Source: Azolla caroliniana (Eukaryota; Plantae; Polypodiophyta). From it: a DNA stretch of 64,000 nucleotides. Location of the stretch: positions 2,852,001 to 2,916,000 of the forward strand of contig JBHGNT010000006.1 of NCBI GenBank assembly GCA_043228905.1. Reading direction: 5' to 3'. The position numbers and the translations under genes are program-made. Shown here piece by piece: positions 1-45,036 of the stretch. Numbering within the stretch: position 1 is the first letter of the stretch; each line of letters starts with the position of its first letter. The notes below the pieces were generated by a model. That model was not told where the DNA came from. It searched no databases and saw only the letters and a list, made by a program, of their open reading frames with translations.

Positions 1-416
1 CCCGACGAAAATGGTCGCAGAGCGCTTGGCCATCCCACTGAACATCTCAATGCTAATTGTCTAAATTCAGAGGCATAAAAGGATACCGAACGCATACCTT
101 GATGTAATGAATAGAGTTTGGTAATGGCAGTTCGGCATCGGTCTATATCCCCAAATGTTGCCTAGAACTCTGCCAGGAAGGCAAGAAAATTTTGTAGAAG
201 TGATGATGAAGTTTCGACCAACAGTGCAAACCAGGCTTGTGCAGCTCTTGAGAGAAGGGTCCCGATAAGACCAACTTGACGAAAATCATTCGCATACCGT
301 TGAGGCTGTAGTTGGATAATAAGTTTGATTTGATTTATGAATCCTCGGGAGTGCTTCCTCGTGCCATCGAACTTGTCAAATAAACCAAACTTGGGCTCCA
401 TACTTGTAGTGGGATG
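1..416 (-). mobile_element. Older Tcn1-like Ty3/gypsy element, downstream part of gag (continues beyond window start)
   Basis: Translation MEPKFGLFDKFDGTRKHSRGFINQIKLIIQLQPQRY...GTLLSRAAQAWF is homologous to the intact gag at 9715-10842 (EPKISLPAKFDGTRSLFRGFLNQVRL). Stop codon at 162-164. Its 5' part lies at 11326-11976. Confidence 0.85.
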
Positions 417-931
417 TGTAAAGAATAGCGCGGAATATTGCTCGGCCACAACCGAGTCTTGAAACACTTCGTTTAAGGATCAAACATAAAAAATGAGAAT
501 AGAGATGAATACACGTACACCAAAAGAGAGTAAACAAGATGTTCACCTGGAAAACCCTAAATGGGAAAAACCACGGGAGCCCACAGACTCCGAACAAACA
601 CTATATGAGAAAGGTACAGTCAGAGACTCAGAGGCAATGGCCTCGAGCTCTGTTTCTTCGCCAATCGGCGGTTACAATAGAATATCACTCTGTATCACCT
701 CTCTCGCTCTCTCTACAACATTTATACACATACCACAATATGACAACATCTGTACACACAAAGTGTTTGCCCTAAGTCATATTTATACTTATATGAACTT
801 AGGGCTATTTACAAATATAGCCTCAATAGGCTTACTCAAAACATATTCACAAATATGTCTTCTCTTCCGGTTCTCACCGGGTCCTCTTCATTCAACACCG
901 GATCCCATCCAGAGGGACCGATTTCCCAACA
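417..931 (-). repeat. 3' LTR of copia element (515 bp)
   Basis: TGTAAAG...CCCAACA ends; direct repeat of 5021-5523; adjacent PPT at 932-941 (AGGGGGAGAA on the minus strand). Confidence 0.95.
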
Positions 932-941
932 TTCTCCCCCT

Positions 942-3900
942 TCACTCCGGCATGGGATGTCTCGCCAGCCTGATCCACTTTCGGCATGCATCCAGCTTGT
1001 CGGTTGTCAACACCTTGGTCAGCATATCCGACCCGTTCTCCTTTGTGTGGATCTTCATCAGCACGAACTCTTGATCTTCTACTCTCTCTCGGATCCAGTG
1101 GTACCTCCGCTGGATATGTTTCTTCTGGGAATAGTAGGCCGCGTTCTTTGCAATGTGGATGGTACTTTGACTGTCACAGTAGAGCCGGTATTCCTCCTGT
1201 TGGATCCCTAGTTCTCTAATGAAGTCCTTCATCCAAATTATCTCCTTGTCGGCTTCTACTGTTGTTATGTACTCCGCCTCCGTGGTTGACAACGCAACCG
1301 TCTTCTGCAGCCTCGACTGCCCTGATACACCCCTGCATAAGTCATGACATATCCGAATGTAGACCGGCTGGTATCCGCATCAGCCGACATATCCGAATCC
1401 GTGAATCTGTGAATCCTTCAAGTTGGGGATAACCAAAGCCAAACCAGAGACACATACTCGCGGTGCCTTTCAAATACCAGAGTATCCACTTGACCGCGTT
1501 CCAGTGCTCTTTTTTCCGGGATTGCTTATGAACCGGCTTACCACTCCGATTACATATTCGATATTCGGCCGGGTACATACCATCATGTATATCAAGCTTC
1601 TGACGGTAGAGGCATATGATATCTTCATCATATCCGTCTTCTCTGATCATAACTCTAATAGTTGGTATCATTCATAGTCATGAAATAGGTGAACAAGACA
1701 ACCTACCTATTGTGATGTGTCTTCGGGCTCTGCTTTCCGGACAACTTGCAATTTGCCGGAATTGTCGATCCAACCGTTGAAGCACCTTTGTCACGTACTT
1801 CTCCTATGACAACCACAACAGCTTCTTCAACCGGTCCCGGATGATGTGCATTCCCAATATCTGTCTTGCTGAACCCAAGTCTTTCATTGAGAAGGTCCGG
1901 TTCAGAGCCTCCTTCAGCATCCGAATCTTGCCTTGGTCTCTCGTCCACATATAGGAGGAGTATTAGGAAATCTCTTCCGTCAAATTTCTTCACAAACACG
2001 CAGTGATCGACTTGCGTATTGTGGTACCCTTGGTCAGTCATGAAGGAGTCGAACTTCTGGTACCATTGGTGGAGGGCTTGCTTCAATCCGTATAAGCTCT
2101 TCTTCAGCCGGCACACCAGGTGCTCCTTCCCTTTCTTCTCAAATCCTTCCGGTTGATGCATGTAGATCTCTTCTTCGAGGTCACCATGTAGGAACACCAT
2201 CATGACGTCCAGTTACTCTACCTCGAGGTCCATGCTTGTCGCTATTCCCAATACCGTCCAAATGGATGTCATCTTTACTACCGGGGCTAAGATCTCATCG
2301 AAATCCACTCCTTTCTTCTACTAGAACCCCTTCACCACAATCTGGGCTTTGTATCTCGTTGGGTTTCCGACATCTCCCAGTTTCAACTTGTACACCCACT
2401 TGTTCCGAAGTGCTCTCTTCCCTTTCAACAACTTCGTCAGTTCATACGTGTGGTTCTCATGTAGGGAATCCATCTCATCCTACATGGCACTCAACCACTT
2501 GCGGTTGTGGGTGTCTCTCTTTGCTTCTTCGAAGCTTTCCGTCTCCCCCTCATCGGTTAGCGACACATGATCTGCATCCGGAAATCTCCGGGGGGCTCTT
2601 CTCTCTCGAAGAGGATATCTTCGTCCCTGGTTTCTGACTACCGGTTCCTCCGTTTATTCCGAATCCGAATGTGATTCAGGATCTTGTCCGGTTCCGGTGT
2701 CTTCTTCTTCTTCTTCTTCTTCTTCTTCTTCGGTCGGTCCAGTTTCTTGTCTGTATCCGGCCGGTCGTTGAGTGTCATCCGGTTTCCGGCTAACATCTGG
2801 TTTTTAACCGGGTATGCCCTTGTGTCCTCAAGCCGGTTTTCATTGGATGATCCGAGTTCATCACCTTAGTCTCCGACTCCCAGTCGGCAATGGTCTTGTC
2901 TTCCATGAAGACTATGTCTCGACTCCGGAACACCTTCTTGTCGACTAGATCCCACACCTGGTAACCGAACTCATCATCGCCGTATCCAAGGAATATGTAT
3001 GACCGGGACTTCGGATCCAGCTTTTCTCTCTTGTCCTTTGCCACATGCACATATGTGAGACACCCGAACACCTTCAGATGCCAATAAGATACATCTTTAC
3101 CGGTCCAAACTTTCTGAGGTGAGTCTCCGTCCAAGGGGACTGAGGGCGATCAGTTTATCACATAGGTCGCCATCGTCAGCGCCTCAGCCCAAAACGTCTT
3201 GGGTTACTTGGCATGTGCGAGCATGCTCCGGACTCTTGCCATTATGGTTCGGTTCATCCTTTCGGCCTGCCCGTTTAGTTTCGGCGTCTTCGGCACGGTG
3301 AATTCGAGCCGGATTCCCTTCGACCGGCAGTATTCCTCGAATTTCCCCTGGTATTCTCCTCCGTTGTCCACTCGAACCGCCTTCGGCTTCCGGCCAGTTT
3401 CTCTTTCCACTTTCGCATGGAGCTCCTTGAAGACAGATAGCACCTGATCCTTCGTCTTCAACGGTGAGACCCACAACTTCCGGTTGTGGTCATCTATGAA
3501 CGTCACGAAGTATTGCGATCCAGCATGTGACTTCGTGTCCACTTGACACACATTGGTATGCACCAGCTCCAGTGGTGCATTCCGTCTCATCGATGGTCTT
3601 GACCGGAAGGAGGTTCGGTTTTGCTTGCCGGCAAGACCATCGGTGCACTTCTCAAGTTGCACGTCTTTCATCGGAATGAGATTGTCTTCTGCAAGTCTCT
3701 TCATCCCCTTCTCACTTATGTGACACAGTCTTTTGTTCCACAGCTCACCGGTAGTGTCAGATGCTACGTTCACTTCTTCCCGGCATATCCGGGCATTCAT
3801 CAAGTATGGTGTGTTGGTCTTTCGGGCTCGAGCCACAATCAGGCTTCCTTTGCAGAACTTCATAACTCCGTTCCGGATGCTACCCGTGTAGCCTTCATCA

Positions 3901-4991
3901 TCTAGCCGACCGACTGATATCAGGTTCAGTCGAACCTTCAGAACGTGTCGGACATCTTTCAGAAGCAACTTTCATCCGGTTGATGTCATCAACAACACAT
4001 CTCCTATGCCGACAATTCGGCATGTACCTTCACTCCCCATCCGAACACAACCATGATCTCCGGCTATGTAGGATAAGAAGCACCTCCGGTCCGGTGTCAG
4101 GTGGAACGATGCTCCGGAATCGACAACCCACATTGTCTCGTCACCGACAAGGTCTAACTCATTCTCTTCGATAATGAGCATCAGTTCTTCTTCACTTGTC
4201 GCATTGCCGACGTTCCCTTCCTATCCGGGCCTCTCCGGTCTGAACCATTTCGGTCCGAACTCTTCTTCGAATCGGCACTGTCGGTTTCCTTCTCTTTCCG
4301 GAAATATCGACAATTCTTCTGGAAGTGTCCCAGCTTCCCGCAATAGAAGCACGTGGGTCTTCCCCTTGACTTCGACCTCATCCCCGATTTGTCCCGGTTT
4401 TGGGGACTCCGATACCGGCCTCTTCCCCGGTTGTGGTCATCTTCCGTGACCAAGTCATTCGGATCAGTTCCGGAATCACGAACCTTCCGGCGAGCTTCTT
4501 CATCTAGGAAGCTTGATTTTACCCTTGCTAGGGACAATTGCTTTCCTTCCGGCCTGGCGTTGCCCAACGTGACAACCAACGTCTCCCAGCTATCCGGGAG
4601 GGAACCGAGAAGGAGCAATGTGAGTACCTCATCGACGAGAGGTACTTCCAACGAGATTGTTTGGTGTATTAGCCCCTAGAAGGCATTCATGTGCTCTGCC
4701 ATACTGGAGTTGTCCCGGTACCGGAGCCTCACTAGATTAACAACATTCTTGTTTTGGAACATGATGTCGATCTTCTCCCAAAGTTCATGAGCCTTGCTCT
4801 CTCCATTGAAGTTGTTATACAAGCTCATGTCGATGAAGCACCGAATTTATGCCATCATCTTCATGTGCATCACCTCCCACGTGTACCGACAACCAAAGAT
4901 CTTTAACCACCAAAATATCCCTCATCTTCGATTTCCACACTGAGTAATTGGAGTCAGTGAGCTTGAACATGCCGTCGAACGGTTCTTCCAT
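942..4991 (-). pseudogene. Copia gag-pol polyprotein, disrupted by stops, frameshifts and small deletions
   Basis: Gag MEEPFDGMFKLTDSNYSVWK and CFYCGKLGHFQKNC knuckle; PR WVVDSGASFH; INT DNGGEY...AERMNRT; RT LKKSLYGLKQ/LLYVD; RH STTEAEY...HIQRRYHWIRE. Confidence 0.92.
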
Positions 4992-5005
4992 TTTCTGTGT
5001 TGTTC

Positions 5006-5017
5006 GCTCTGATACCA
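5006..5017 (-). other. Primer binding site, tRNA-iMet
   Basis: TGGTATCAGAGC on the minus strand, 3 nt from the 5' LTR end. Confidence 0.93.
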
Positions 5018-5020
5018 GAT

Positions 5021-5523
5021 TGTAAAGAATAGCGCGGAATATTGCTCGGCCACAACCAAGTCTTGAAACACTTCGTTTAAGGATCAAACATAAAAAATGA
5101 GAATAGAGATGAATACACGTACACCAAAAGAGAGTAAATAGGATGTTTACGTGGAAAACCCTAAATGGGAAAAACCACGGGAGCCCACAGACTCTAAACT
5201 AACACTATATGAGAAAGGTATTGTCAGAGACTCAGAGGCAATGGCCTCGAGCTCTGTTTCTTCGCCAATCGGTGGTTACAATAGAATATCACTCTGTATC
5301 ACCTCTCTCGCTCTCTCTACAACAATTATACACATACCACAATATGACAACATCTGTACACACAAAGTGTTTGCCCTAAGTCATATTTATACTTATATGA
5401 ACTTAGGGCTATTTACAAATATAGCCTCAATAGGCTTACTCAAAACATATTCACAAATATGTCTTCTCTTCCGGTTCTCACTAGGTCCTCTTCATTCAAC
5501 ACTGGATCCCATTTGGAGGGACC
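5021..5523 (-). repeat. 5' LTR of copia element, outer ~12 bp and TSD lost
   Basis: Matches 417-919 with scattered substitutions; similarity stops after AGGGACC. Confidence 0.9.
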
Positions 5524-5541
5524 AGGCTTTGTTGATGCAGG

Positions 5542-6090
5542 TGTCGTGACTCTTGAGTAGGAAGCAGAGAGAGAGCGATGGCGATAGAGATAACGATAAC
5601 GATAGAGATGGCGAGAGCGGTAGAGATAGCGATAGTGATAGCAAAAGAGAGTGAAAGAGGGAGAGAGTGCGAGAGAGAGAAAAGTATAAGTGAGAGATAA
5701 GAAATGGGAATGCGATTATATTATGAGAAAGAAGATTACAAGGAGTAGGCTAAGGGCTAAAGACTGGTGTTGAACCGAATGAGTTGTGATGAGTGTATGG
5801 ACTCTTATTTATAGGCCCTTATGGAGTATTCTAGAATGTTCTAGAATATTTTAGATATTTATGAATAATAATAATAATAAATATAATCATGAAATATTCA
5901 AGAACATTCTAGAATAATCTAGAATGTTCTAAATATCTCGTAATAACTAAACATATAATTATTATGATTACATCTCACATATGTTATTACAATGGTTAAA
6001 GTACAATATGTAAACCAAGAGGTTATGGGTTCGACTCCTGGTTCGCCAAGATGAATGTCATGATAAGCCAAGATGTATGTCTTCATGACA
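5542..6090 (-). repeat. 3' LTR of Tcn1-like element (549 bp)
   Basis: TGTCGTGA...TCATGACA terminal inverted repeat; followed on the + strand by the PPT complement TTATCCCCCCT. Confidence 0.95.
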
Positions 6091-9000
6091 TTATCCCCCC
6101 TTTTTGATGACGAGTTGCACGAGTCGGAAGAAAAGAGTTCAGACTTGGTTTATGAGGATATTGGTTGTGAAATGCAACAACCATGTCGGAGGCATTGGCA
6201 AGATGTTCGGCAGGCTCCCATGTTCGATCATCAGGTGTATAGCCTAACCAATCAACCAAGTAGTATAGTTTGTTGCGAATGATCTTGGAGTCGAGGATAG
6301 CGGCAACCTCATATTCAGAGCCATTGGAAACGTCAATTGGAGGTGGGGGAGGTGTAACACGACCCGGAATAGAGCTCGTTGTGTAGGGCTCCAAAAGTGA
6401 AACATGGAAGACCGGGTGAAGACGCATATGAGGAGGAAGATCAAGACGAAATGTCACATCATTGATCTTACCACTTATGACATATGGGCCAAAACGTTGA
6501 TAATCCAATTTGTAGCAAGGTCGGGTCGTTTTAATGCTACCTTGTAAAAGCCATACACGATCGCCTACTTGAAATGTAGTCGATGAATCACGCCGATGAC
6601 GGTCAGCAATCTTCTTTTGAGTGTTTTGGGCTTCACATAAATGATGCAAAAGCATATCCTGAACTTCTTGGAGTCGAGTGAGCCGATCTTCAGCAGCTGG
6701 GTTTTTTGGGAGTTCAGGATGTTCAAGCATCGTCCAACGAGGATGGTACCCAATGTTTGCAAAAAATGGGGAATATCCAGTAGAAGAATGCTCGGAGTTG
6801 TTATAAGCAAATTCTGCCAAAGGTAGTAAATCCACCCAATCATCTTGTTGATAGTTGACAAAACAACGTAGATATTGCTCGACTGTTTGGTTGGTGCGCT
6901 CACTCTGCCCATTAGTCTCTGGATGGTAGCCGGAAGAGAGTTTACAAGAAGTATGTAAGAGTTTGAACATGTGCCGCCAAAATTTCGAGATGAATTGGGG
7001 ACCCCGATCACTGATAATATCATCCGGAAGACCATGATGGCGAAACACCTCCCGCAAGAGTAAATCAGCTGTCTCTTGACTAGTAATGGTCTTTGTGCAT
7101 GGAAGGAAATGTGCCATCTTCGTAAAACGATCGACAACCGTGAGAATCGAATCAAATCCCTTGGAAGGTGGAAGATCCGTAATAAAGTCCAAGGAAATAG
7201 ATTTCCATGGGCTCTCCGGAATAGGCATTGGCTGTAATAAGCCATATGGATGATGTCGAGGCTTTTTTGATCGGCAACATGTATCACAGCTACGAACATA
7301 ATCCGTAACAAAATGGCGAAGCCGTGGCCACCAATATCGGCGAGAAATCAACTCAAAAGTCTTGTGGATGCCGAAGTGTCCCGCCATTGGTGTGTCATGA
7401 CATTGTTGCATGACTTTGAGTCGAGAAGGACCGTCAGGCACATACAAGAGAGTTTGTCGAAAAAGTAACCCATCATGCCAACTAAACTGGGTGTAGTCTA
7501 GACGAGGATTTTGAGTTTGGGAGCTAGATGCACGATTTGGGATAATATGGCTCAAAACCTCTTGGGCGAACGCATCAGTCGCAATCTGCTCACGAATGGA
7601 ATCAAGAAGCCTTGAATCTCCCGGTGTGTTGATGGTATGCATTGCCATTATTCGTAGACGATCAGGACCTAAGAGGATTTGCTTTTGGCTTTCAAATGCG
7701 GCCTCTCCAGGTTGAAGTTCCATATACGAACGTCTAGATAAAGCATCTGCTTTTCCTTGTTGCATCCCAGGGCGATATAGAATTACAAAATCGAAACGAG
7801 TTAAGAACTGCGCCCAACGAGCTTGTCGTCGATTCAAGACTCGAGCACTTTGAAAGTATGTTAGATTTTTATGATCATTGTAGACAATAATCTGCTGAGA
7901 AGAACCCTCCAGAAAATGACGCCATTGTTGAAAAGAATCCACAATGGCAAGAAGCTCTTTGTCGTGAATCTCATAGTTGATTTCTGCGGCTTCAAATTTT
8001 CGTGAGTGAAAAGCCACCGGGTGCAGTTCACCATCATCACCAATTTGGGATAGTACACTTCCGAGTGCGAAATCCGATGCATCAGCTTCAAGTATAAAGC
8101 GCCTCATTGGATCGACATGGATTAAGATTGGTGCGGATGTAAATGCTTGCTTTAAACCCTCAAATGCAGAGTTCGCATCTATACTCCATACAAATGATCG
8201 ATTCTTGTGCGTCAGTTGAGTGAGGGGCAACACAATTTTTGAATAATCTTTGATGAACTTGCGATAAAAGTTTGCGAACCCCAAAAAACATTGCACATCT
8301 CGCACGGACTGTGGTGTTTGCCAATCCAAAATTGTTTGAACCTTTGATGGATCCATAGAGATGCCATTTGAAGAGACTATGTACCCCAAAAACTCCACTT
8401 GACATTGGTCGAAACTACACTTCTCCAATTTTGCATAGAGACCATACTCTCGTAGCCGTTGCAAAACTTGGCGAACATGTATATCATGTTCTTCTTGAGT
8501 TTTTGAGTAGATCAAGATATCATCCAGGTAAACAATGATGAAGATATCGAGGAAGTCTCGAAAAATATCATTCGCCATATGTTGGAAGACTGCTGGTGCA
8601 TTCGTGAGGCCAAAAGGCATCACTGTGTACTCAAAATGACCATAGCGAGTGCGGAACGCCGTCTTCCATTCATCCCCAGGACGAATTCGAACAAGGTTGT
8701 AGGCACCTTGAAGATCTAACTTCGTGAAATACTTTGCTTCACTGAGGCGTTCTAGAAGGCTTGAGATCAATGGGAGAGCATATCGGTTTCTAACGGTCAC
8801 TTTATTCAAGCCTCGATAATCCACGACCATACGAAGCGTACCATCTTTCTTCTTAACGAAAAAGATGGGTGCACCAGCAGGAGATTTTGAATGTTGGATA
8901 AAACCATTTGCCAAGTTCTCATTGATATATTCTCGAAGAACCTCTAACTCCGTGGGCGAAAGATTATAAATTGGTCCCCATGGAGGCTCTTTTCCTGGCT

Positions 9001-9688
9001 GCAAATCAATTGGGCAATCATATGGTCGATGCTCTGGTAGTCTATTAGCCTTCACCTTATCGAACACATCGGAGAATTCTATGTACTTCTTTGGTAGTTG
9101 GACCCCCAATTCTTGTGAGCTAGATGAGGGAGTTGCTAAAACCGCAAATACCATCATGTCTTCCTTTCTTCCATCCTCTCGTAATTGATGTATAGAGATT
9201 GTTGAAATTGTGGGGGATCCTAGATCCTTAGTTGGAGCTTCAAGAGACTTGGATTGTACGGTGACCTCTTCAATAGTTCTTTTTCTCCAATCAATGGTTG
9301 GGTTATGTAACTCAAACCAAGGAAGACCAAGAACTAGAGAGTGCTCCGGACTACTAATGATGTTAAATGAGATGACACTAGCCAAATTACCTAGGACTAC
9401 ACGAATTGGTTCAGACTCTTCGACTATATCTCCTGATGCTATAGGGCGACCATCGATGACTCCTACAGCTACTGGGTTTGGGAGTTTTTTCAAGATGATG
9501 TTTTGAGTCAATGCAAACTCGCGATCCATGAAACAAGAATTGGCTCCGGAATCTAGGAGGGCAGAGGCTAGGGCGCGATGACCTGTAGATGTGCTAAGCT
9601 CGACTTGTGCAGAAAAAACTCTACTAACTTGATTTGATGAAATGGAACCACAACTAGGTACTGACTCTACATAACTAGGATGGTCCAA
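6083..9688 (-). CDS. pol: Pol polyprotein (PR-RT-RNaseH-INT-chromodomain), probably entered by -1 frameshift near 9721-9727
   Basis: 1201-aa ORF: LLDSGA protease, YLDD RT, EADASD...DHKNL RNaseH, HHCC and SDRG...E integrase, GPY/F motif, chromodomain EYEVAAIL...YLVDWLGY...TWEP. The stop lies inside the 3' LTR. Confidence 0.96.
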   Translation of the reverse strand: MDHPSYVESVPSCGSISSNQVSRVFSAQVELSTSTGHRALASALLDSGANSCFMDREFALTQNIILKKLPNPVAVGVIDGRPIASGDIVEESEPIRVVLGNLASVISFNIISSPEHSLVLGLPWFELHNPTIDWRKRTIEEVTVQSKSLEAPTKDLGSPTISTISIHQLREDGRKEDMMVFAVLATPSSSSQELGVQLPKKYIEFSDVFDKVKANRLPEHRPYDCPIDLQPGKEPPWGPIYNLSPTELEVLREYINENLANGFIQHSKSPAGAPIFFVKKKDGTLRMVVDYRGLNKVTVRNRYALPLISSLLERLSEAKYFTKLDLQGAYNLVRIRPGDEWKTAFRTRYGHFEYTVMPFGLTNAPAVFQHMANDIFRDFLDIFIIVYLDDILIYSKTQEEHDIHVRQVLQRLREYGLYAKLEKCSFDQCQVEFLGYIVSSNGISMDPSKVQTILDWQTPQSVRDVQCFLGFANFYRKFIKDYSKIVLPLTQLTHKNRSFVWSIDANSAFEGLKQAFTSAPILIHVDPMRRFILEADASDFALGSVLSQIGDDGELHPVAFHSRKFEAAEINYEIHDKELLAIVDSFQQWRHFLEGSSQQIIVYNDHKNLTYFQSARVLNRRQARWAQFLTRFDFVILYRPGMQQGKADALSRRSYMELQPGEAAFESQKQILLGPDRLRIMAMHTINTPGDSRLLDSIREQIATDAFAQEVLSHIIPNRASSSQTQNPRLDYTQFSWHDGLLFRQTLLYVPDGPSRLKVMQQCHDTPMAGHFGIHKTFELISRRYWWPRLRHFVTDYVRSCDTCCRSKKPRHHPYGLLQPMPIPESPWKSISLDFITDLPPSKGFDSILTVVDRFTKMAHFLPCTKTITSQETADLLLREVFRHHGLPDDIISDRGPQFISKFWRHMFKLLHTSCKLSSGYHPETNGQSERTNQTVEQYLRCFVNYQQDDWVDLLPLAEFAYNNSEHSSTGYSPFFANIGYHPRWTMLEHPELPKNPAAEDRLTRLQEVQDMLLHHLCEAQNTQKKIADRHRRDSSTTFQVGDRVWLLQGSIKTTRPCYKLDYQRFGPYVISGKINDVTFRLDLPPHMRLHPVFHVSLLEPYTTSSIPGRVTPPPPPIDVSNGSEYEVAAILDSKIIRNKLYYLVDWLGYTPDDRTWEPAEHLANASDMVVAFHNQYPHKPSLNSFLPTRATRHQKGGIMS

Positions 9689-9727
9689 CCAAATGGCTCC
9701 TATTTTGGCCGGACTTATTCGTTTAAC
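9676..9727 (-). promoter_or_regulatory. Putative -1 ribosomal frameshift signal (G_UUA_AAC plus stem/pseudoknot)
   Basis: Heptamer 9727-9721, 6-nt spacer, 11-bp stem GUCCGGCCAAA/UUUGGUUGGAC; loop UAGGA can pair with downstream UCCUA; pol is in the -1 frame relative to gag. Confidence 0.75.
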
Positions 9728-10842
9728 ACATCCTCTAATTGGCTCAAGACATCAAATCTATTCTCATGGCATGGGCTATTAGGCTTAGTACTTAAGTTAT
9801 TAGACGTGATAGTAGAACTTGATGTAGGGTTGTCATGTGCACTTACTTGGTAAACTTGACGCCTGGGTTTATGTGGACAATTCACAGCTATATGTCCTGG
9901 ACCACCACAGTAGAGGCATAGGCGATGCGCCCGACGTCGTTGTTTCTCAGCATCTGATAAGGGCCCTCGACGTTGTGTCGACTCTATTTCCATCGGAGTG
10001 GGACCATCCCTCGTAACGGGTCTAGAACCTTGTGGCGGTGTGGCGACTATAGAAGCGTATGTCTGTTCCGGTTGGCGGCGTAACATTTGTTGACGTTCAG
10101 AACGTCGCTCAAATAGGCGATTATCACATCGCACAGCTCGGCTAATAGCTTCAGTAAGAGACTTTGGATCTTCATGGAAAGTAAGAAGAAGATCTTTGAC
10201 ATCGTTACGCAAACCCTGACGGAATTGATCCATTAAGGCTGCCTCATCCCAAGGGATGTCGCATGCCAAGAGACGGAAATCTGCGGCATAAGCTGAAGCG
10301 GGACGATCTCCTTGTCGGAGTCTTCGAATCTTGTTTATTGCAGTCCTAGTGCTATCCGTATCTCCAAAACTAGCTTGAAACTCCTTAACGAATTCCTCGA
10401 AATCCTCCAGTAATGGTGATTTCTTCTCAAGAAGTGGTGCAAACCATGCTAACGCTGTACCGCTTAGCAAGGTTCCTATTAATCCCACACAGGCAGCATC
10501 AGTTGGATACCGATTGGGATGTAACTGAATCACCAAACGAACTTGATTCAGGAAACCTCGAAAGAGAGATCTGGTACCATCAAACTTGGCAGGGAGGCTA
10601 ATCTTTGGTTCCCTTGGGGAGTTTTGAACCCCCGCCGCTTGTTCTCGTAATGTTAATATAGTAGCCTCAAGTTGATGAACCCGTTGTGATAACTCCTCAT
10701 ATTGATGAGCTTTCTCAGTACTGACTTGTTGAAGATCCCCGAGTAGCCTTTGATTTTCTTGCTCTAATGCCACAAACTTAGTGGTGAGCATATCGAGCTC
10801 CGAAAGGACACGCATATACTCTTGCTTGCTGACCGACTCCAT
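9715..10842 (-). CDS. gag: Gag protein (coiled coil, retrotransposon gag domain, CCHC knuckle)
   Basis: 375-aa ATG-initiated ORF with FDG...FL, LRQG..SASAY...F, PTPMEI and CLYCGGPGHIAVNC motifs typical of Tf1/sushi/Tcn1-group gag. Confidence 0.95.
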   Translation of the reverse strand: MESVSKQEYMRVLSELDMLTTKFVALEQENQRLLGDLQQVSTEKAHQYEELSQRVHQLEATILTLREQAAGVQNSPREPKISLPAKFDGTRSLFRGFLNQVRLVIQLHPNRYPTDAACVGLIGTLLSGTALAWFAPLLEKKSPLLEDFEEFVKEFQASFGDTDSTRTAINKIRRLRQGDRPASAYAADFRLLACDIPWDEAALMDQFRQGLRNDVKDLLLTFHEDPKSLTEAISRAVRCDNRLFERRSERQQMLRRQPEQTYASIVATPPQGSRPVTRDGPTPMEIESTQRRGPLSDAEKQRRRAHRLCLYCGGPGHIAVNCPHKPRRQVYQVSAHDNPTSSSTITSNNLSTKPNSPCHENRFDVLSQLEDVLNE

Positions 10843-10914
10843 AACCGCGGGGGAAAAAGAAAGAAGGATAAAGAAGAAAGCTTGCTAGGGTTATTGGAGA
10901 AAGGGAAAAGAAAT

Positions 10915-10925
10915 ATTCGGTTCAA
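10915..10925 (-). other. Self-priming PBS (TTGAACCGAAT)
   Basis: Perfect 11-nt complement of ATTCGGTTCAA at 11015-11005, about 30 nt downstream of TATAAATA (11048-11041). No TGG-type tRNA PBS is present. Confidence 0.85.
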
Positions 10926-10929
10926 ACCG

Positions 10930-11325
10930 TCGCCATCTCTATCGTTATCGTTATCTCTATCGCCATCGCTCTCTCTCTGCTTCCTACTCAAGAGTCACGA
11001 CAGTTTGAACCGAATGAGTTGTGATGAGTGTATGGACTCTTATTTATAGGCCCTTATGGAGTATTCTAGAATGTTCTAGAATATTTTAGATATTTATGAA
11101 TAATAATAATAATAAATATAATCATGAAATATTCAAGAACATTCTAGAATAATCTAGAATGTTCTAAATATCTCGTAATAACTAAACATATAATTATTAT
11201 GATTACATCTCACATATGTTATTACAATGGTTAAAGTACAATATGTAAACCAAGAGGTTATGGGTTCGACTCCTGGTTCGCCAAGATGAATGTCATGATA
11301 AGCCAAGATGTATGTCTTCATGACA
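10930..11325 (-). repeat. Rearranged 5' LTR: intact U3 (11005-11325) plus 73-bp inverted U5 (10930-11002)
   Basis: 10930-11002 is the reverse complement of 5542-5614; the equivalent of 5615-5769 is absent. Confidence 0.92.
11064..11164. promoter_or_regulatory. Two heat-shock element arrays in U3 (also at 5829-5929)
   Basis: TTCtaGAAtgTTCtaGAA and TTCaaGAAcaTTCtaGAAtaATCtaGAAtgTTC: alternating nGAAn units just upstream of the TATA box. Confidence 0.75.
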
Positions 11326-11976
11326 GCAGGAGGAGAGCTGTTTTTTTCTTCGAAATCCATAGATGTTTCAACTTGAAGCTTCCGTAACGATTCCCGAAGG
11401 TGGTCATTCTCAAGTTGAAGTTGATGCATGGCTTCCATGAGCTGATTTATTCTCTCGGTAAGATCCGACATGTTGAGGCTTAGAAAATGGGAAGGTGAAC
11501 AAGCTGTCACGAATGGGTGGTTGAGGGTAAATATTAAGAGAGAGCGAGAGTATAAGCAAGAGAACAAGACTGTCACAGACAAGTAGATGAGGCTCAATAC
11601 TAAGAGATAGCGGGAGAGAGAGCATAGACAAGAGAACAAGCAAGAGAGAGAGAAAATAGATAAAAGAATAAGAACTGAATTACGCTTTCATAACTGGTGG
11701 TGTTCGCCTTGATTGTAATCAATGTGCACCCGAGTATTTATACAAGAATGTGGAGGTATGCATGAAAGCTAGAGAACTTCTAGAGAGTGCATGAAGATGC
11801 ATTCTCTAGAAGTTTCTTGAAAGTTTTAGTGATCAATCTACAATGTAATAACTTGAATCTTATACAATATAATAATTTATAGATGGATGTAGCTCAACTA
11901 GTAAGGTTGCCCAATAAGACCAAGAGGTCATGAGTTCAACCCCCACAATTTCATTTGTGGCATCCTCTCTATGACA
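11326..11976 (-). mobile_element. Older Tcn1-like element: 5' LTR (11505-11976), self-PBS and gag N-terminus
   Basis: TGTCA...TGACA ends; TATAAATA at 11742-11735; PBS 11492-11501 complementary to 11701-11710 (9/10); gag start MSDLTERINQLMEAMHQLQLEN. Confidence 0.8.
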
Positions 11977-16840: not shown

Positions 16841-18237
16841 TCAGGCATGCGAGGTGGCACGACGACGTGTGAGTGCACGGTGTAGGATGGGTCGTATGGA
16901 TCGGAGAGATATCGTGACATCTTGATCTTCCAAGTATACACGTTTCGTTTCCCACCAACCCTTTCTATTGACCGACTCGGGATCGGACAACACTGGATTG
17001 TGTGGCCCATATTTGTGCCATAGAGAGCTTTCCCTAGGTTGAACCTTATACTCCACATAGTGCAACCCAAACTTTTGTGCGGGCTCGCCGTAGTACGTGG
17101 CGGCCGCCCATTCCGTCCCGATCGGTACCACTTGTATGAACACGGACCCGGGCCTCATGAACAATAAGTGTGTCATTGCCGCCCCATGGACACCTAGCAT
17201 CACATCGCATGTATTGAGGTCCCAGTAAATGTCGGCCATCTCGGTCGACGACTTGGGCGCGACGACGGACACGACGAACCCTAACCTCGTCGCGAGCTTG
17301 ACAACGTCCTTTTCATTGAGGAGCGCACGGGGGCTCTTCCGGGAGACAATGACGAGTTTTGGGCGGGAGGGCGAGGTATGAGGGGAAGGGGTGGATTGGT
17401 GGGTGACGACGCGTGTGCCCGACGGGGCCGACGTGCGTAGGAGCACTTTGGACAAGCTCGACTCGCGTTTCGGGAGGTAGGCCGCGCGCAGCACGTTGTC
17501 TCGGAAGTCTTGCATGGAGAGGCTAGGGTGGAGGGAGAGGCCGAGGGTCTGATTGGGCGGGGCAAGGGTGCGGTTGGCCACGGCCGGTATCGTCAATTCG
17601 TCCTGGATGTTTAAACCCACTTTGAGTTCGGGGAAGCAGTGTGTCCTCGGGTCGGCCGACATGTCGACAACCTTGTAATGTGTGAGCCTCTCAATGACCT
17701 CCTTGTACTTGGTCATCCACCAGCTGTGGTACTCCAGTATGAGCAGCACAACCTCCCCATGGAGATGGCCTACTGACAAATACAAAGGTATGAGGCCATC
17801 ATTGAATTCATGGTACACATTCCCTGTGTATCCTCCTGTCGAGAAAACTACCCCGGGAACTCGGTGCCGCACATGGCACGCTGCCATCTCCATCTCCATC
17901 TCAACCTCTTTCTCTGTCGAATTGGTCCCCATTCTGATGATTTGCCTCTTGATCCTCACTTCATCGATCGTCTTCATCACATTTTCTTCCCATTTTCGCG
18001 TGTATGGCCTGACCCTCTCTTCCCTCCTCTCCGCGTAGGCGCTGCCTGCAGCGGATAGCCTTCCCAGATCAATCACCTGTAAAACTGTGTAATTGTTCGG
18101 AAGAAGCTTCTGTCGAGGCCGCGCTCTGCCCCTTCCCATCACTCTCACGTCTCCCCTCACCACGCATACATCCGTTCGGGGATGCGATCGGTCGCACTCC
18201 ATGGATTTGTCGTTGAGATCAAGACGTGGTGGCCTAT
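16841..18237 (-). CDS. Glycosyltransferase family 61 (xylan arabinosyl/xylosyltransferase, XAT/XYXT/MUCI21-like), exon 2
   Basis: CDRSHPRTDVC, RPYTRKWE, GYTGNVYHEFNDGLIPLY, LGVHGAAMTHLLFMRPGSVFIQVVPIG, YYGEPA, GWWETKRVYL motifs; acceptor ttttctctgcag at 18238; stop TGA at 16843-16841. Confidence 0.95.
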
Positions 18238-18413
18238 CTGCAGAGAAAATCCGAGCAGAAGGAGCGCCAAATGATCTTCCGTCTCATGAATTAAGGGAAT
18301 TTAACGGTTCTTCCCAATCATGTAGAATCAAATGAATGAATTGAAACAGAAACGAAGAGAGAAAAACCAAAGAGACTTTTCCTTCCTGTTTCTTTGTTTT
18401 TTTTTTTTAATAC

Positions 18414-29981: not shown

Positions 29982-30026
<45 letters not shown>

Positions 30027-30031
<5 letters not shown>

Positions 30032-30468
30032 TAGCTCAATTGGTAAGGTTGCCCAATGGAGACTAGGTGGTCATGGGTTCAACCCCTACATTCCACAATG
30101 GCATCTAGTGAATTGAGAGATATATAAGAAGTATATAATAGAGAGGTGAGGAAGTTGGGTTTCGAACCCATAATGTAGTGCTTGTAGTGCTAACAACTTA
30201 CCACTAGGGTAAGGTAATCACGATAAAGAGAGCAAGAGAGAGAGAGCCCAGATGGATGTACCTCAGTTGGTAAGCTTGCCCAATGGAGACCAGGTGGTCA
30301 TGGGTTCAACCCCTACTTTCCACAGTGCAATCTAGTGAAATAGAGATATATATGAAGTATATAATAGAGAGGTGAGAAAATTGGGTTTCGAACCCAAGAC
30401 ACAGTGCTTGTAGTGTTATCGACTTACCACTAGGGTAAGCTAATTACAATAAAGAGAAAGAGAGAGAC
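30027..30468. repeat. Two ~222-bp tandem units, each with a convergent pair of tRNA-like (A/B-box) sequences; SINE-like
   Basis: + strand TAGCTCAATTGG...GGTTCAACCCC; - strand CCCTAGTGGTAAG...GGTTCGAAACCC; the second unit starts at about 30250. Confidence 0.75.
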
Positions 30469-42218: not shown

Positions 42219-42739
42219 AGTGGATTTTTGTGCATCTGTGTCTGTACTGGTGTCTTTGGAGTTCTTTCTTTCTAGTTTCTGTACATAGGAAGCATGACAT
42301 GTCTAGTCGGTGTTGTGTGTTTCCTTTTCGCTCTCCCATTCGGTTGCTTTCGGTACGTATTGGGAAAACGCTTTGGTCGGTGTTTCGGCCGGTTGCCGGA
42401 AACAGTGAAGCTCGACCTTCCATGCTCCGTCTCTCTCAGGTCCAAGACCTCGGTGGTCCCGCTCCAAATCTAACACGTACCCACAGATTTCCGCGACATC
42501 TTTGGTGAACCCGACGTGAAAGGGTGGCAAGGGAGGATGGAGTTGGAAGACGATGACTTCACGGAGATAATGGCGAAGGCACTGGTGGAGTTCGAAAAAG
42601 CGACGATGAGACGAGAAGTAGCACAACAACCCGTCAAGAGTGTGGACAACGGCCCATTCTACTTGGAAGCCTACAACGCGTAAATGGAGGTGCGAGGTGT
42701 AGACGAGGCTGGAGTTCTTCTGTCGGGTCGCAGCTATCA
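41652..42739 (+). mobile_element. tRNA-Trp-primed gypsy element: 5' LTR (41652-42498), PBS and gag start
   Basis: TGTCG...CGACA LTR with (TG)n; PBS TGGTGAACCCGACGTGAA at 42503-42520; degenerate gag (YLEAY) similar to 51145-51705. Confidence 0.85.
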
Positions 42740-45036
42740 TGATATGGCAAGATTCAAACCCATGACCTTATGTTACATGGGTTGAGCTCTTGACCATTAG
42801 ACTATATATTGTAATACGAAAAATATTATTTTCATTTAAGTTTTTACTATAGAAAATAGATGTATATTCTAGATTTCTCTAGAACATTCTAGAAACTTCA
42901 GGTGTACTCCTGAGAACACTATAAAAGGAGGCACAAGGCATTATTTCGAACCAAATCAGTTCAACGTCAGTCTTATGTCTCCTAGCTACTACTGTATATT
43001 CTCTTAACATAATATACATCTTTTGTTATCATCACTCTCTCTCTCTCGATCTCCCTCTCTCACTCACTCTTTCCTTCTCTCAAGAGTTCTACACTTCCCT
43101 TAGTACTAATCCTCATCTTTTAGTACTAATTCCTTCTCTGTCTTAGTACTATTCCTGACAATTTGAACCGATTTCAATCTCCTTCATTCTCCTCCTTTTA
43201 TCTTCTTACTTCTCCCTCCCTTCATACTAATCTCTTATTCCTCTTTTCTCTCATACTATGGCCACTGTTAGCACTCAAGAATATCAATCCGTTTTTTCTC
43301 GAAGTTGCAATGCTTGAAAGAGAAGTTTCTCGCATTGGAATAAGAAAATCAACAACTGTTGGGGGAGCTTCAACAAACTCCTTAGAGAAGCCACAAACGC
43401 AACAACATCATGGGGAACTAGCATTATGCGTGCAATAGTTCGAAGCGACCATTGTAGCGTTGCAACAACAAGGACCAAGTACACAAGGGATTCATAAAGA
43501 ACCCAAGATCGGCCTTCCTATGAAGTTTGATGGAACGCAATCATAGTTTAGAGGATTCCTTAATCAGGTACGATTAGTCATTCAAATGCATCCTTCCTGA
43601 TATCCCACCGATGCATCACGAGTGGGTCTAGTAGGCACGTTGTTAAGTGGCTCAGCTTTGGCATGGTTTGCTCCGTTGTTAGAAAATGAATCTCCATTAC
43701 TAAACAATTTTGAAGAGTTTATAAGTGAGTTTAAAGCCTGTTTTGGAGATACTTATAGCATAAGGACAACAATCAACAAAATCCGACAATTACGTCAAGG
43801 TGATCGTCCAACCTCCGCATACGCCGCAAATTTCCGTCTACTCACCTCTGATATCGCTTGGGATGACCAAGCACTAATGGAGTAATTTTGTTATGGCCTA
43901 CGTAATGATATCAATAATTTATTCTTGATCTTCCCCGAAGAACCAAAGTCATTGACAGAAGCAATCAGTCACACAGTACGATGCAATAACCGCCTCTTCG
44001 AACGACGTTCAGAACGTCAGTTTCAAATGCCGAGGGCAAGATTGGAGCCCACCTACGCTTCAGTTGTAGCAAATCCTTTCCCAAGGGAATCATTTAATAC
44101 GTCTCCAACAAATACTCCGACACCACACGTCGTCACAGACCCCTATTAGAAGAAGAAAAGCAACGACGTCGGGCAAATCGATTATGTCATTATTGCGGTG
44201 GACCGGGGCATATTGCAGTGAACTATCCCCATCGGCCAAGAAGGCAGGTAAATCAAATAACCGCTAATACTAATAGTACTAAACCCGAGTCTATTTCTCT
44301 AGGCGTGTCCGATAGTCCTAATAGTCAAGCCTTTCAAACAAATTTGAAATCCTTAGTCAACTAGAAGAAGAGTTAAGTCCAGCCAAAATAGGAGTCATTT
44401 GGTTGGACAACCCTAGATCTGTGCAGCCCATTAGTGGTTCCATTTCCTCTAAGCATGTTAGCAATGTGTTCTTAGCTCAAGTAATGGTTAGTACTAAAAG
44501 TACTCCTCCTATACATGTCTTAGCACTCTTAGATTCCGGAGCCAACTCTTGCTTCATGGATAGGATTTTTGCCCAAGCTCATCAGATATCCCTAAGAAAA
44601 CTTTCTTGCCCAACATTTGTAGTAGTTATTGATGGTCGTCCCATTGCTTCCGGAAAAATCGTAGAGGAGTTAGAGCCGATTCAAGTTGTCCTAGATAACT
44701 TCGTGTGTGTAGTATCATTTAATATAATTAGTAGTCCAGATCATCCAATTGTCTTGGGGTTACTGTGGTTCGAATTACATAACCCAGACATAGATTGGAG
44801 AACAAGAGAAATCCGGTATCGACAAATCCGAGGATCTACTCATAAGATTGCAACCATTTCGCTACATCAATTGCGTCAGGAAGGACACAAGGAAGCCCAG
44901 TTTGTCTTCACGGTATCAGTAAAACCTTCCAACACTACTAAAGAGGAAGCCACAATTCAACTTCCAGAGAAGTACCGTCAATATGCCGATGTGTTCGATA
45001 AGGTACAAGCCAATACGCTTCCTCACCACCAACCGT
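42740..45036 (+). mobile_element. Degenerate Tcn1-like chromovirus: 5' LTR (42740-43160), gag, protease
   Basis: Gag VGLVGTLLSGSALAWFAPLLE; PR LLDSGANSCFMD closely similar to 6083-9688; self-PBS 43163-43174; truncated by an LTR insertion at 45037. Confidence 0.92.

What the first reader, a model, noticed from the sequence alone, without database searches (positions are those of the whole stretch)
5978..6048. Chromovirus LTRs carry an outward-facing tRNA-like Pol III unit at the U3 tip
Seen: three otherwise divergent Tcn1-like LTRs each have a tRNA-like segment in the outermost ~100 bp of U3, antisense to the element. These are 5978-6048 (copy 11213-11283; AATGGTTAAAG...GGTTCGACTCC...CCA), 11883-11963 (TAGCTCAACTAG...AGTTCAACCCC) and about 42742-42806 on the minus strand (TAGTCTAATGG...GGTTTGAATC). 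All share an AGGTYATGRGTT core. Established: Cassandra TRIMs carry 5S/Pol III sequence in their LTRs, and TFIIIC-bound B-boxes can act as chromatin barriers. Inference: same position and orientation in three families points to a retained LTR module (insulator, outward Pol III transcript or small-RNA source) rather than chance SINE insertions. I do not know of a description of this, but could not check the literature.
Basis: partly seen in the sequence, partly recalled or inferred. Interest (0 to 1): 0.85.

Follow-up and report, generated by a model that had tools for sequence, protein, structure and literature searches.

The report
Jumping genes keep backwards tRNA-type promoter
In two lineages of self-copying plant jumping genes, the end repeats keep a backwards tRNA-gene-type promoter signature while the DNA around it has changed almost beyond recognition, which likely means that the element recruits the host's RNA polymerase III machinery, possibly to shield its own promoter from silencing.

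Summary
Confirmed and extended. Four LTR copies of three self-priming chromoviruses in this probably fern window carry, antisense near the U3 tip, an A box and B box at tRNA-gene spacing. It is not a tRNA (no ARAGORN/Rfam hit, no stem covariation, no conserved terminator). Of 42 LTR tips scored with generic motifs, 15 (about 11 families) have it, all antisense; 27 lack it. The A-to-B distance stays 42-45 nt while the box-to-tip distance varies 10-52 nt, and the spacer and the rest of U3 diverge; within U3 only the tip, the unit, TATA and the R start are conserved. Carriers form two clades whose union is rejected (AU p=1.7e-30). A very abundant ~200-bp non-LTR repeat shares its head with one subgroup, so exchange with a SINE-like repeat is likely. 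Best reading: a retained type-2 Pol III promoter acting in cis, likely as a chromatin barrier or opener beside the Pol II promoter; binding, transcription and benefit are untested. Closest known: Helenus/Cassandra TRIMs (non-autonomous; sense in those seen) and foamy-virus U3 Pol III cassettes. New variant of a known kind.

The parts
5542..11325 (-). Element A: chromovirus with open gag and pol, 5-bp target-site duplication GCAGG at 5537-5541 and 11326-11330
5542..6090 (-). 3' LTR of A (549 bp; U3 tip at 6090, TATA near 5805-5812, R start near 5782)
5978..6048 (+). tRNA-like unit in 3' LTR of A: A box 5985-5995, AGGTT 6020-6024, B box 6028-6038; faces the PPT and pol
5933..5973 (+). AT-rich tract (82% AT) upstream of the unit, candidate TFIIIB loading zone (inferred)
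6091..6105 (-). Polypurine tract of A
6083..9751 (-). pol ORF, 1222 aa: RT, RNase H, integrase, SH3, chromodomain
9715..10884 (-). gag ORF, 389 aa
11005..11325 (-). U3 and R start of the 5' LTR of A, 321 of 321 nt identical to the 3' LTR; most of R/U5 is missing and the last 73 nt of U5 lie inverted at 10930-11002
11213..11283 (+). tRNA-like unit in 5' LTR of A; faces outward
11505..11976 (-). 5' LTR of element B (second clade), followed by a self-priming-type PBS and a gag start that A interrupts
11883..11953 (+). tRNA-like unit in LTR B: A box 11890-11901, B box 11933-11943
42735..43160 (+). 5' LTR of decayed element C (L014 family), followed by a self-priming-type PBS, gag and protease, cut by a Copia element
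42740..42811 (-). tRNA-like unit in LTR C: A box 42804-42794, B box 42760-42750
30025..30460 (.). Two tandem copies of an abundant ~200-bp non-LTR repeat, each with two converging tRNA-like heads; the + strand head is 79% like the unit of LTR B over 84 columns

Best explanation
The U3 tip of these chromoviruses keeps the A box, B box, spacing and AT-rich upstream tract of a tRNA-gene (type-2 Pol III) promoter in antisense orientation while the tRNA body has decayed, so it likely recruits TFIIIC/TFIIIB and likely benefits the element in cis, most probably as a chromatin barrier or opener at the outer edge of its own Pol II promoter. Shown: the anatomy, the differential conservation, the intact sense TATA, R start and self-priming PBS 107-178 nt away from the unit's +1 (TATA), and two separate carrier clades. 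Inferred: that selection (not only slow decay) keeps the boxes (about 0.8); that the selected thing is DNA binding by Pol III factors rather than an RNA product (about 0.7 of that); that the gain is protection or opening of the Pol II promoter in the heterochromatin that a cage-type chromodomain integrase is expected to favour. In this geometry TFIIIB would sit on the promoter side and TFIIIC between the promoter and the flank. Origin (inferred): capture of a tRNA or SINE-head RNA, plausibly by mis-priming near the U3 tip, at least twice or once followed by a U3 swap.
For: 15 of 42 LTR tips score 4 mismatches or fewer on the antisense strand, none on the sense strand; all 15 have AGGTY at tRNA positions 44-48, which was not part of the score. 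A-to-B 42-45 nt, B-to-tip 10-52 nt in 14 units. Among 7 clade-1 families (Pol 71-87% identical): identity 0.90 at 44-48, 0.74 B box, 0.66 A box, against 0.41 anticodon arm and 0.32 3' part. Whole-U3 alignment of 6 families: conserved blocks are the tip, the unit, TATA and R start. AT 0.78-0.88 just upstream in all 6, where the rest of U3 is 0.46-0.81. A versus L010: 0 of 15 core letters differ, 8 of 18 spacer letters. No covariation of cloverleaf stems (228 of 500 shuffles as high; anticodon stem 30%, acceptor 39% paired). In run X1 two contigs of depth about 9000 cover the U3 tip with 0 and 1 differences; runs of four organisms cover it. TFIIIB/TFIIIC barriers are described in yeast (PMC9540200, passage); A/B boxes plus AT-rich upstream DNA define plant tDNA promoters (PMC13437025, passages).
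Against: No binding, chromatin or transcript data. The barrier passage concerns yeast and animals; I saw none showing it in plants. A boxes are often one or two letters off and no CAA lies at -10..+1 in 6 of 6. L033, inside a carrier clade, has lost the unit (score 5), and related chromoviruses in other sample sets, some with near-whole pol, lack it (26 of 26), so it is dispensable elsewhere. Between close copies (L012/L013, L014/C) core letters change as often as the rest (4 of 30). The core set was partly chosen after seeing the alignment. The strong conservation of positions 44-48 lies outside the textbook boxes and is not explained by the barrier idea. Carriers come from one series of assemblies plus the window, so they are probably one host lineage.
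Confidence: 0.45

Rival explanations
1. The promoter is kept for its RNA: Pol III makes a short antisense transcript that runs over the U3 tip (into the PPT and chromodomain from the 3' LTR, into host DNA from the 5' LTR) and tunes or decoys silencing of the element.
For: Both boxes, their spacing and an AT-rich upstream tract are kept, as initiation needs; foamy viruses transcribe Pol III cassettes from U3 (PMC6950176, passages). In A a T5 run lies 62 nt past the B box.
Against: No conserved terminator: first T4 lies 11-530 nt past the B box, and none within 600 nt in L017; the A copy's T5 is T4 in most other copies (6105 T>C). No shared fold: only 2 of 7 window units fold better than shuffles, and no covariation.
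Confidence: 0.17
2. A passenger: tRNA or SINE-head RNA is captured again and again near the U3 tip by mis-priming during reverse transcription (which would give this position and strand), or refreshed from the abundant repeat, and then decays without benefit.
Against: Fresh captures would keep stems and spacer as well as boxes; instead the boxes persist while spacer and stems are scrambled across 7 clade-1 families, whose units do not match the repeat (anticodon-arm identity 0.32).
Confidence: 0.15
3. The bound Pol III complex matters for DNA transactions rather than transcription: a polar replication-fork pause, a tether of the cDNA end, or a landing pad for tRNA-targeting elements.
For: tRNA genes are fork barriers and the related self-priming Tf1 uses a Sap1 barrier at its LTR; Ty3 and Tj1 insert beside tRNA genes (PMC7175516, passages). 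Fixed orientation fits a polar barrier. Earlier notes e1-10420520 and e1-10420559 report landing pads in fungal LTRs.
Against: B-to-tip distance is free (10-52 nt). I saw no element inserted just upstream of a unit in the U3 sequences printed, and A and C do not sit beside tRNA-like units; read by eye on a small set.
Confidence: 0.12
4. The sense genomic RNA uses the reverse complement to pair with a host tRNA (or with the self-primer) during packaging or strand transfer.
For: A tRNA-gene-like sequence in HIV-1 U3-R is reported to promote minus-strand transfer (title only, in a reference list). The best-kept block is contiguous (positions 44-62).
Against: These elements have self-priming PBSs, so no primer tRNA bridges the ends. 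The primer core differs in L017 and in clade 2 without a matching change in the B box. Positions 49-52, 57 and 59 vary as a promoter tolerates, and strict A-to-B spacing is not needed for pairing.
Confidence: 0.08

Closest known systems
Helenus / TRIMp3 (Kojima 2024, PMC10886601; read parts 1-4 of 6, figure and table section, supplement search hits)
   Same: [quoted passage not shown]
   Different: Helenus are non-autonomous, 311-1263 bp, tRNA-primed, and the unit is sense in the four LTRs I saw in the supplement (incl. the only plant family, Helenus-1_SMo); it is proposed to drive the element's own transcription. Here the elements are autonomous, self-priming, keep a sense TATA, and the unit is antisense. 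The paper says that 'not a few LTRs' in Repbase hold part of a tRNA but analyses only TRIMs.
Cassandra TRIM (as described in PMC10886601)
   Same: Pol III promoter retained in plant LTRs over long times.
   Different: 5S-derived type-1 promoter, non-autonomous, transcribes the element itself.
Foamy-virus U3 Pol III miRNA cassettes (PMC6950176, passages)
   Same: Pol III unit in the U3 of an autonomous retroelement.
   Different: Those have promoter, dumbbell hairpin and terminator; here no conserved hairpin or terminator.
tDNA/TFIIIC chromatin barriers of yeast (PMC9540200 passage; reference titles in PMC13578239)
   Same: Proposed working principle.
   Different: Host loci, not carried by a transposon; not shown in plants in the passages I saw.
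Tcn1 clade chromoviruses (PMC2864245, PMC6317226; passages)
   Same: Cage-type chromodomain, self-priming, gag-pol layout.
   Different: Both papers place plant Tcn1 in mosses and club-mosses; neither set of passages mentions a Pol III unit in the LTR.
tRNA-gene-like sequence in HIV-1 U3-R (Piekna-Przybylska 2010; title only)
   Same: tRNA-like sequence embedded in U3.
   Different: HIV is tRNA-primed; these elements self-prime. The paper itself was not held.

Membership tests
Type-2 Pol III promoter | A box and B box at tRNA-gene spacing | tested here: met
   generic motifs recalled from textbook knowledge, in line with the box motifs quoted in PMC10886601
Type-2 Pol III promoter | AT-rich upstream tract | tested here: met
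   0.65-0.95 AT in 14 units; CAA absent in 6 of 6
Type-2 Pol III promoter | TFIIIC/TFIIIB binding and Pol III initiation | not testable with these tools
   no ChIP or raw RNA reads available
tRNA gene | Cloverleaf with paired acceptor and anticodon stems | tested here: not met
tRNA gene | Poly(T) terminator just downstream | tested here: not met
Helenus (TRIMp3) | tRNA-derived sequence in the LTR, conserved around the boxes | tested here: met
Helenus (TRIMp3) | Short non-autonomous element without coding capacity | tested here: not met
   5.8-kb element with open gag and pol
Helenus (TRIMp3) | tRNA-complementary PBS; unit able to transcribe the element (sense) | tested here: not met
   self-priming PBS; antisense in 15 of 15; sense in the Helenus LTRs seen
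Independent SINE insertions | Tail and target-site duplication around the unit | tested here: not met
   none seen in alignments, by eye; old traces could be erased
Independent SINE insertions | Head shared with a dispersed high-copy repeat | tested here: inconclusive
   true for B/L040/L049/L051, not for clade 1 or L025; direction of transfer unresolved
Foamy-virus-type Pol III miRNA cassette | Stable hairpin plus terminator | tested here: not met
Tcn1 chromovirus clade | Chromodomain with aromatic cage at the integrase end | tested here: met
   PF00385 E=6e-12; Y, W, Y at the cage positions read by eye
Tcn1 chromovirus clade | PBS complementary to the R start (self-priming) | tested here: met
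   A, B, C; L013, L015, L016, L017, L051
Tcn1 chromovirus clade | Groups with reference Tcn1 elements in an RT/IN tree | not tested
   no named Tcn1 reference was among the sequences fetched

The most novel reading that the evidence does not exclude
Autonomous plant chromoviruses have twice domesticated a tRNA-type Pol III promoter as a portable chromatin barrier that lets a heterochromatin-seeking element keep its own promoter open; every new insertion drops a TFIIIC site and an outward Pol III start into the host genome, and such a start gave birth to an abundant SINE-like repeat.
Probability: 0.3. Interest if true: 0.87.

Novelty: new variant of a known kind. Interest (0 to 1): 0.68.

Why it matters
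It would show an autonomous retrotransposon carrying its own defence against position-effect silencing, built from host Pol III parts, and would give a short, natural, many-times-varied sequence with which to test whether tDNA/TFIIIC barriers work in plants, a function that the review PMC9540200 treats as understudied. Because each copy brings two units, the family would scatter many Pol III-factor sites through the genome, and the link to a high-copy repeat offers a testable route between LTRs and SINEs. It also extends the TRIMp3 idea, in which Pol III promoters in LTRs were tied to short non-autonomous elements.

Tried and rejected
No whole genome is held, so copy counts and flanks come from metagenome contigs and run contigs. 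ARAGORN at default and Rfam found no tRNA in the window, in 5950-6100, or in 8 loci; lowered ARAGORN thresholds gave noise (202 calls at ps80). Viral contigs gave only distant elements and four pattern hits that are not these elements (two beside tRNA-gene clusters). Expression: no RNA holder listed; two runs guessed as RNA were laid only on the 30030 repeat (2 and 45 contigs) and say nothing on strand, start or level. Conserved terminator in the PPT complement: rejected. Pairing of the unit with the self-primer: no covariation. CpG retention in the B box: 7 of 15 keep CG, 6 have CA (allowed by the motif), 2 have TG, against CpG o/e 0.38 elsewhere in U3: suggestive only. Two profile hits in L017 lie in protease-coding DNA and are taken as chance. 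Nine other LTR or LTR-like stretches of the window (Copia-associated) score 5-7, no unit. Cluster look-up gave no organism names. The unit tree (86 columns) cannot give the direction between LTR and repeat. Earlier-findings look-ups by place, sequence and one word set were empty.

Full report
Setting. No genome is held. The only host gene examined, a glycosyltransferase-61 ORF at 16841-18283, has ferns as best named hits at 47-56% identity, with gymnosperms close behind at 46-48%, so the host is probably a fern; the species was not determined. The window is a nest of Copia, Gypsy and LINE pieces.

The elements. A spans 5542-11325 on the minus strand with a 5-bp target-site duplication, open gag and a 1222-aa pol ending in a chromodomain. 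Its two U3 copies are identical over 321 nt, so it is young. B (LTR 11505-11976) is a 5' LTR followed by a PBS complementary to its R start and a gag start that A interrupts; its leader matches L049 and L051 at 82%. C (LTR 42735-43160) is the 5' LTR of a decayed member of the L014 family (79% over 447 nt). All keep a sense TATA about 35-40 nt before a conserved R start. This is the Tcn1-like layout (cage chromodomain, self-priming; PMC6317226, passages), though no named Tcn1 reference was in my trees.

The observation. They are not tRNA genes: no ARAGORN or Rfam call, and on 15 aligned units the cloverleaf shows no covariation (49.4% paired against 49.1% in shuffles; D stem 67%, T stem 69%, acceptor 39%, anticodon 30%). 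The stems that partly persist are those that overlap the boxes.

Relatives. One metagenome scan with an integrase-chromodomain alignment gave 53 loci; it read 14 of 64 parts of the collection. With 9 viral-collection loci there were 62; 39 had a callable LTR tip after the PPT with at least 110 nt, 23 were dropped (contig ends, no chromodomain end, no PPT). These 39 and the three window LTRs were scored over the first 200 nt with generic A and B motifs at tRNA spacing. Fifteen of 42 score 4 or fewer mismatches on the antisense strand (0 of 60 shuffles as good in 14 cases, 2 of 60 for L025); none does on the sense strand; 27 score 5-9 (a few of these tips, such as L002, L021 and L022, are probably miscalled). 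All 15 carry AGGTY at tRNA positions 44-48, which was not scored. Four pairs are near-duplicates, so about 11 families. Fragments L050, L060 and L061 show further copies. Twelve of the 13 callable loci from the ERZ series carry it; none of the 26 from other series does.

Conservation. In 14 units the A-to-B distance is 42-45 nt and the B-to-tip distance 10-52 nt. Among seven clade-1 families, with Pol 71-87% identical, identity is 0.90 at 44-48, 0.74 in the B box, 0.66 in the A box, 0.41 in the anticodon arm and 0.32 downstream. A whole-U3 alignment of six families (240-332 nt) is full of indels except at the tip, the unit, TATA and the R start, and the 40 nt upstream of the unit stay 78-88% AT even where the rest of U3 is 46-60% AT. 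Over seven close pairs 7 of 105 core letters differ against 113 of 620 others (Fisher p=0.003), but the core set was partly chosen from the same data, the pairs are not independent, and in the pairs L012/L013 and L014/C the core changes as much as the rest, as expected if one partner is a dead copy. In run X1 two contigs of depth about 9000 tile the U3 tip of A with 0 and 1 differences, and runs of four organisms cover the unit; the listed variants (6002, 6013, 6035, 6043, 6044) avoid the invariant box letters, but 27 rows were not shown, and two low-depth contigs skip or replace the unit.

Origin. Carriers fall into two fully supported clades: clade 1 (A, L010-L018) and clade 2 (L025, L040, L049, L051; B by its LTR and leader). 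Elements without the unit lie between them, and holding carriers together is rejected (p-AU 1.7e-30, 23 rows, LG+G4; the group was named after a first tree, and many intervening rows are proteins with unknown LTRs). So two gains, a U3 swap, or several losses. At 30025-30460 lie two tandem copies of a ~200-bp repeat with two converging tRNA-like heads; 3511 contigs of run X1 lay on it with summed depth far above that on LTR A, and loose ends mark its borders (depth is no copy number). Its first head is 70-79% like the B/L040/L049/L051 units and 40-55% like the others. Direction is unresolved. I infer that mis-priming by a tRNA-like RNA near the U3 tip would by itself leave an antisense copy 10-50 nt from the PPT; position and strand therefore say little about function, and the case rests on differential conservation.

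Mechanism. What is kept is what TFIIIC and TFIIIB read (boxes, spacing, AT-rich upstream DNA; PMC13437025, passages), not what a tRNA or a miRNA precursor needs (stems, hairpin, terminator). The element's own RNA still appears to come from a sense Pol II promoter 107-178 nt from the unit's +1. The most likely role is in cis on chromatin: TFIIIC between flank and promoter, TFIIIB on the promoter side, as in yeast barriers (PMC9540200, passage). Confidence 0.45; rivals are an antisense RNA (0.17), a recurrent passenger (0.15), a fork barrier, tether or landing pad (0.12) and RNA pairing with host tRNA (0.08). None was tested by experiment.

Known or new. Ten literature searches in the open library found Helenus/Ajax/Cassandra (PMC10886601: parts 1-4 of 6, figures and tables, supplement hits), foamy-virus cassettes and Tcn1 surveys, but no description of a conserved antisense Pol III unit in autonomous chromovirus LTRs. 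Subscription journals and Repbase were not searchable, Kojima notes that other Repbase LTRs hold tRNA parts, and the supplements of the sugar-beet preprint (passages only) were not seen. Three unchecked notes of this scan describe tRNA-like units in fungal LTRs, which hints that the theme recurs. Verdict: real, selected with fair probability, a new variant of a known kind; interest 0.68.

Noticed in passing
window 10918-11016: The 5' LTR of A has lost most of R/U5; between the R start and the PBS lies the inverted last 73 nt of U5. It reads like the self-primer plus the first 73 nt of minus-strand cDNA fixed in the genome, a possible fossil of self-priming.
   Followed up: partly
window 30025-30460: Abundant ~200-bp repeat with two converging tRNA-like heads, GA/A-rich borders and tandem copies, sitting at the end of a LINE RT piece; SINE-like but its class is not settled.
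   Followed up: partly
window 1-11976: Three-level nest: A and a Copia element both interrupt the gag of B; a 22-nt piece is repeated beside both Copia LTRs (898-919, 5502-5523).
   Followed up: no
window 16841-18283: Glycosyltransferase-61 ORF with ferns as best named hits; if the host is a fern, Tcn1-like elements reach beyond the mosses and club-mosses given in PMC2864245 and PMC6317226.
   Followed up: partly
literature: A review (PMC13578239, passage) gives more than 7500 tRNA genes for the fern Azolla filiculoides. Repeat-borne tRNA-like units could inflate such counts, as Helenus does in rust fungi; against this, ARAGORN at default calls none of the units here, and the host species is not determined.
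   Followed up: no
protein P0033: A Pol relative near clade 1 carries PF00692/PF22769 (recalled as dUTPase-type) domains.
   Followed up: no
L017:143-9244; L061:2530-2672: L017 holds two related elements head to tail around one LTR; L061 has a unit-bearing LTR inserted in the integrase of a close relative.
   Followed up: no
window 5824-5925, 11790-11820, 42865-42895: Short palindromic TTCTAGAA repeats in the middle of U3 in A, B, C, L014, L017 and L025, absent from L013, L015 and L016, which have CATG-rich repeats; possible transcription-factor sites (the likeness to heat-shock elements is recalled, untested).
   Followed up: no
L026 and L039, LTR tips: A B-box-like remnant lies 6-11 nt from the tip in this unit-less sister group of clade 2; scores are at chance level.
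   Followed up: partly
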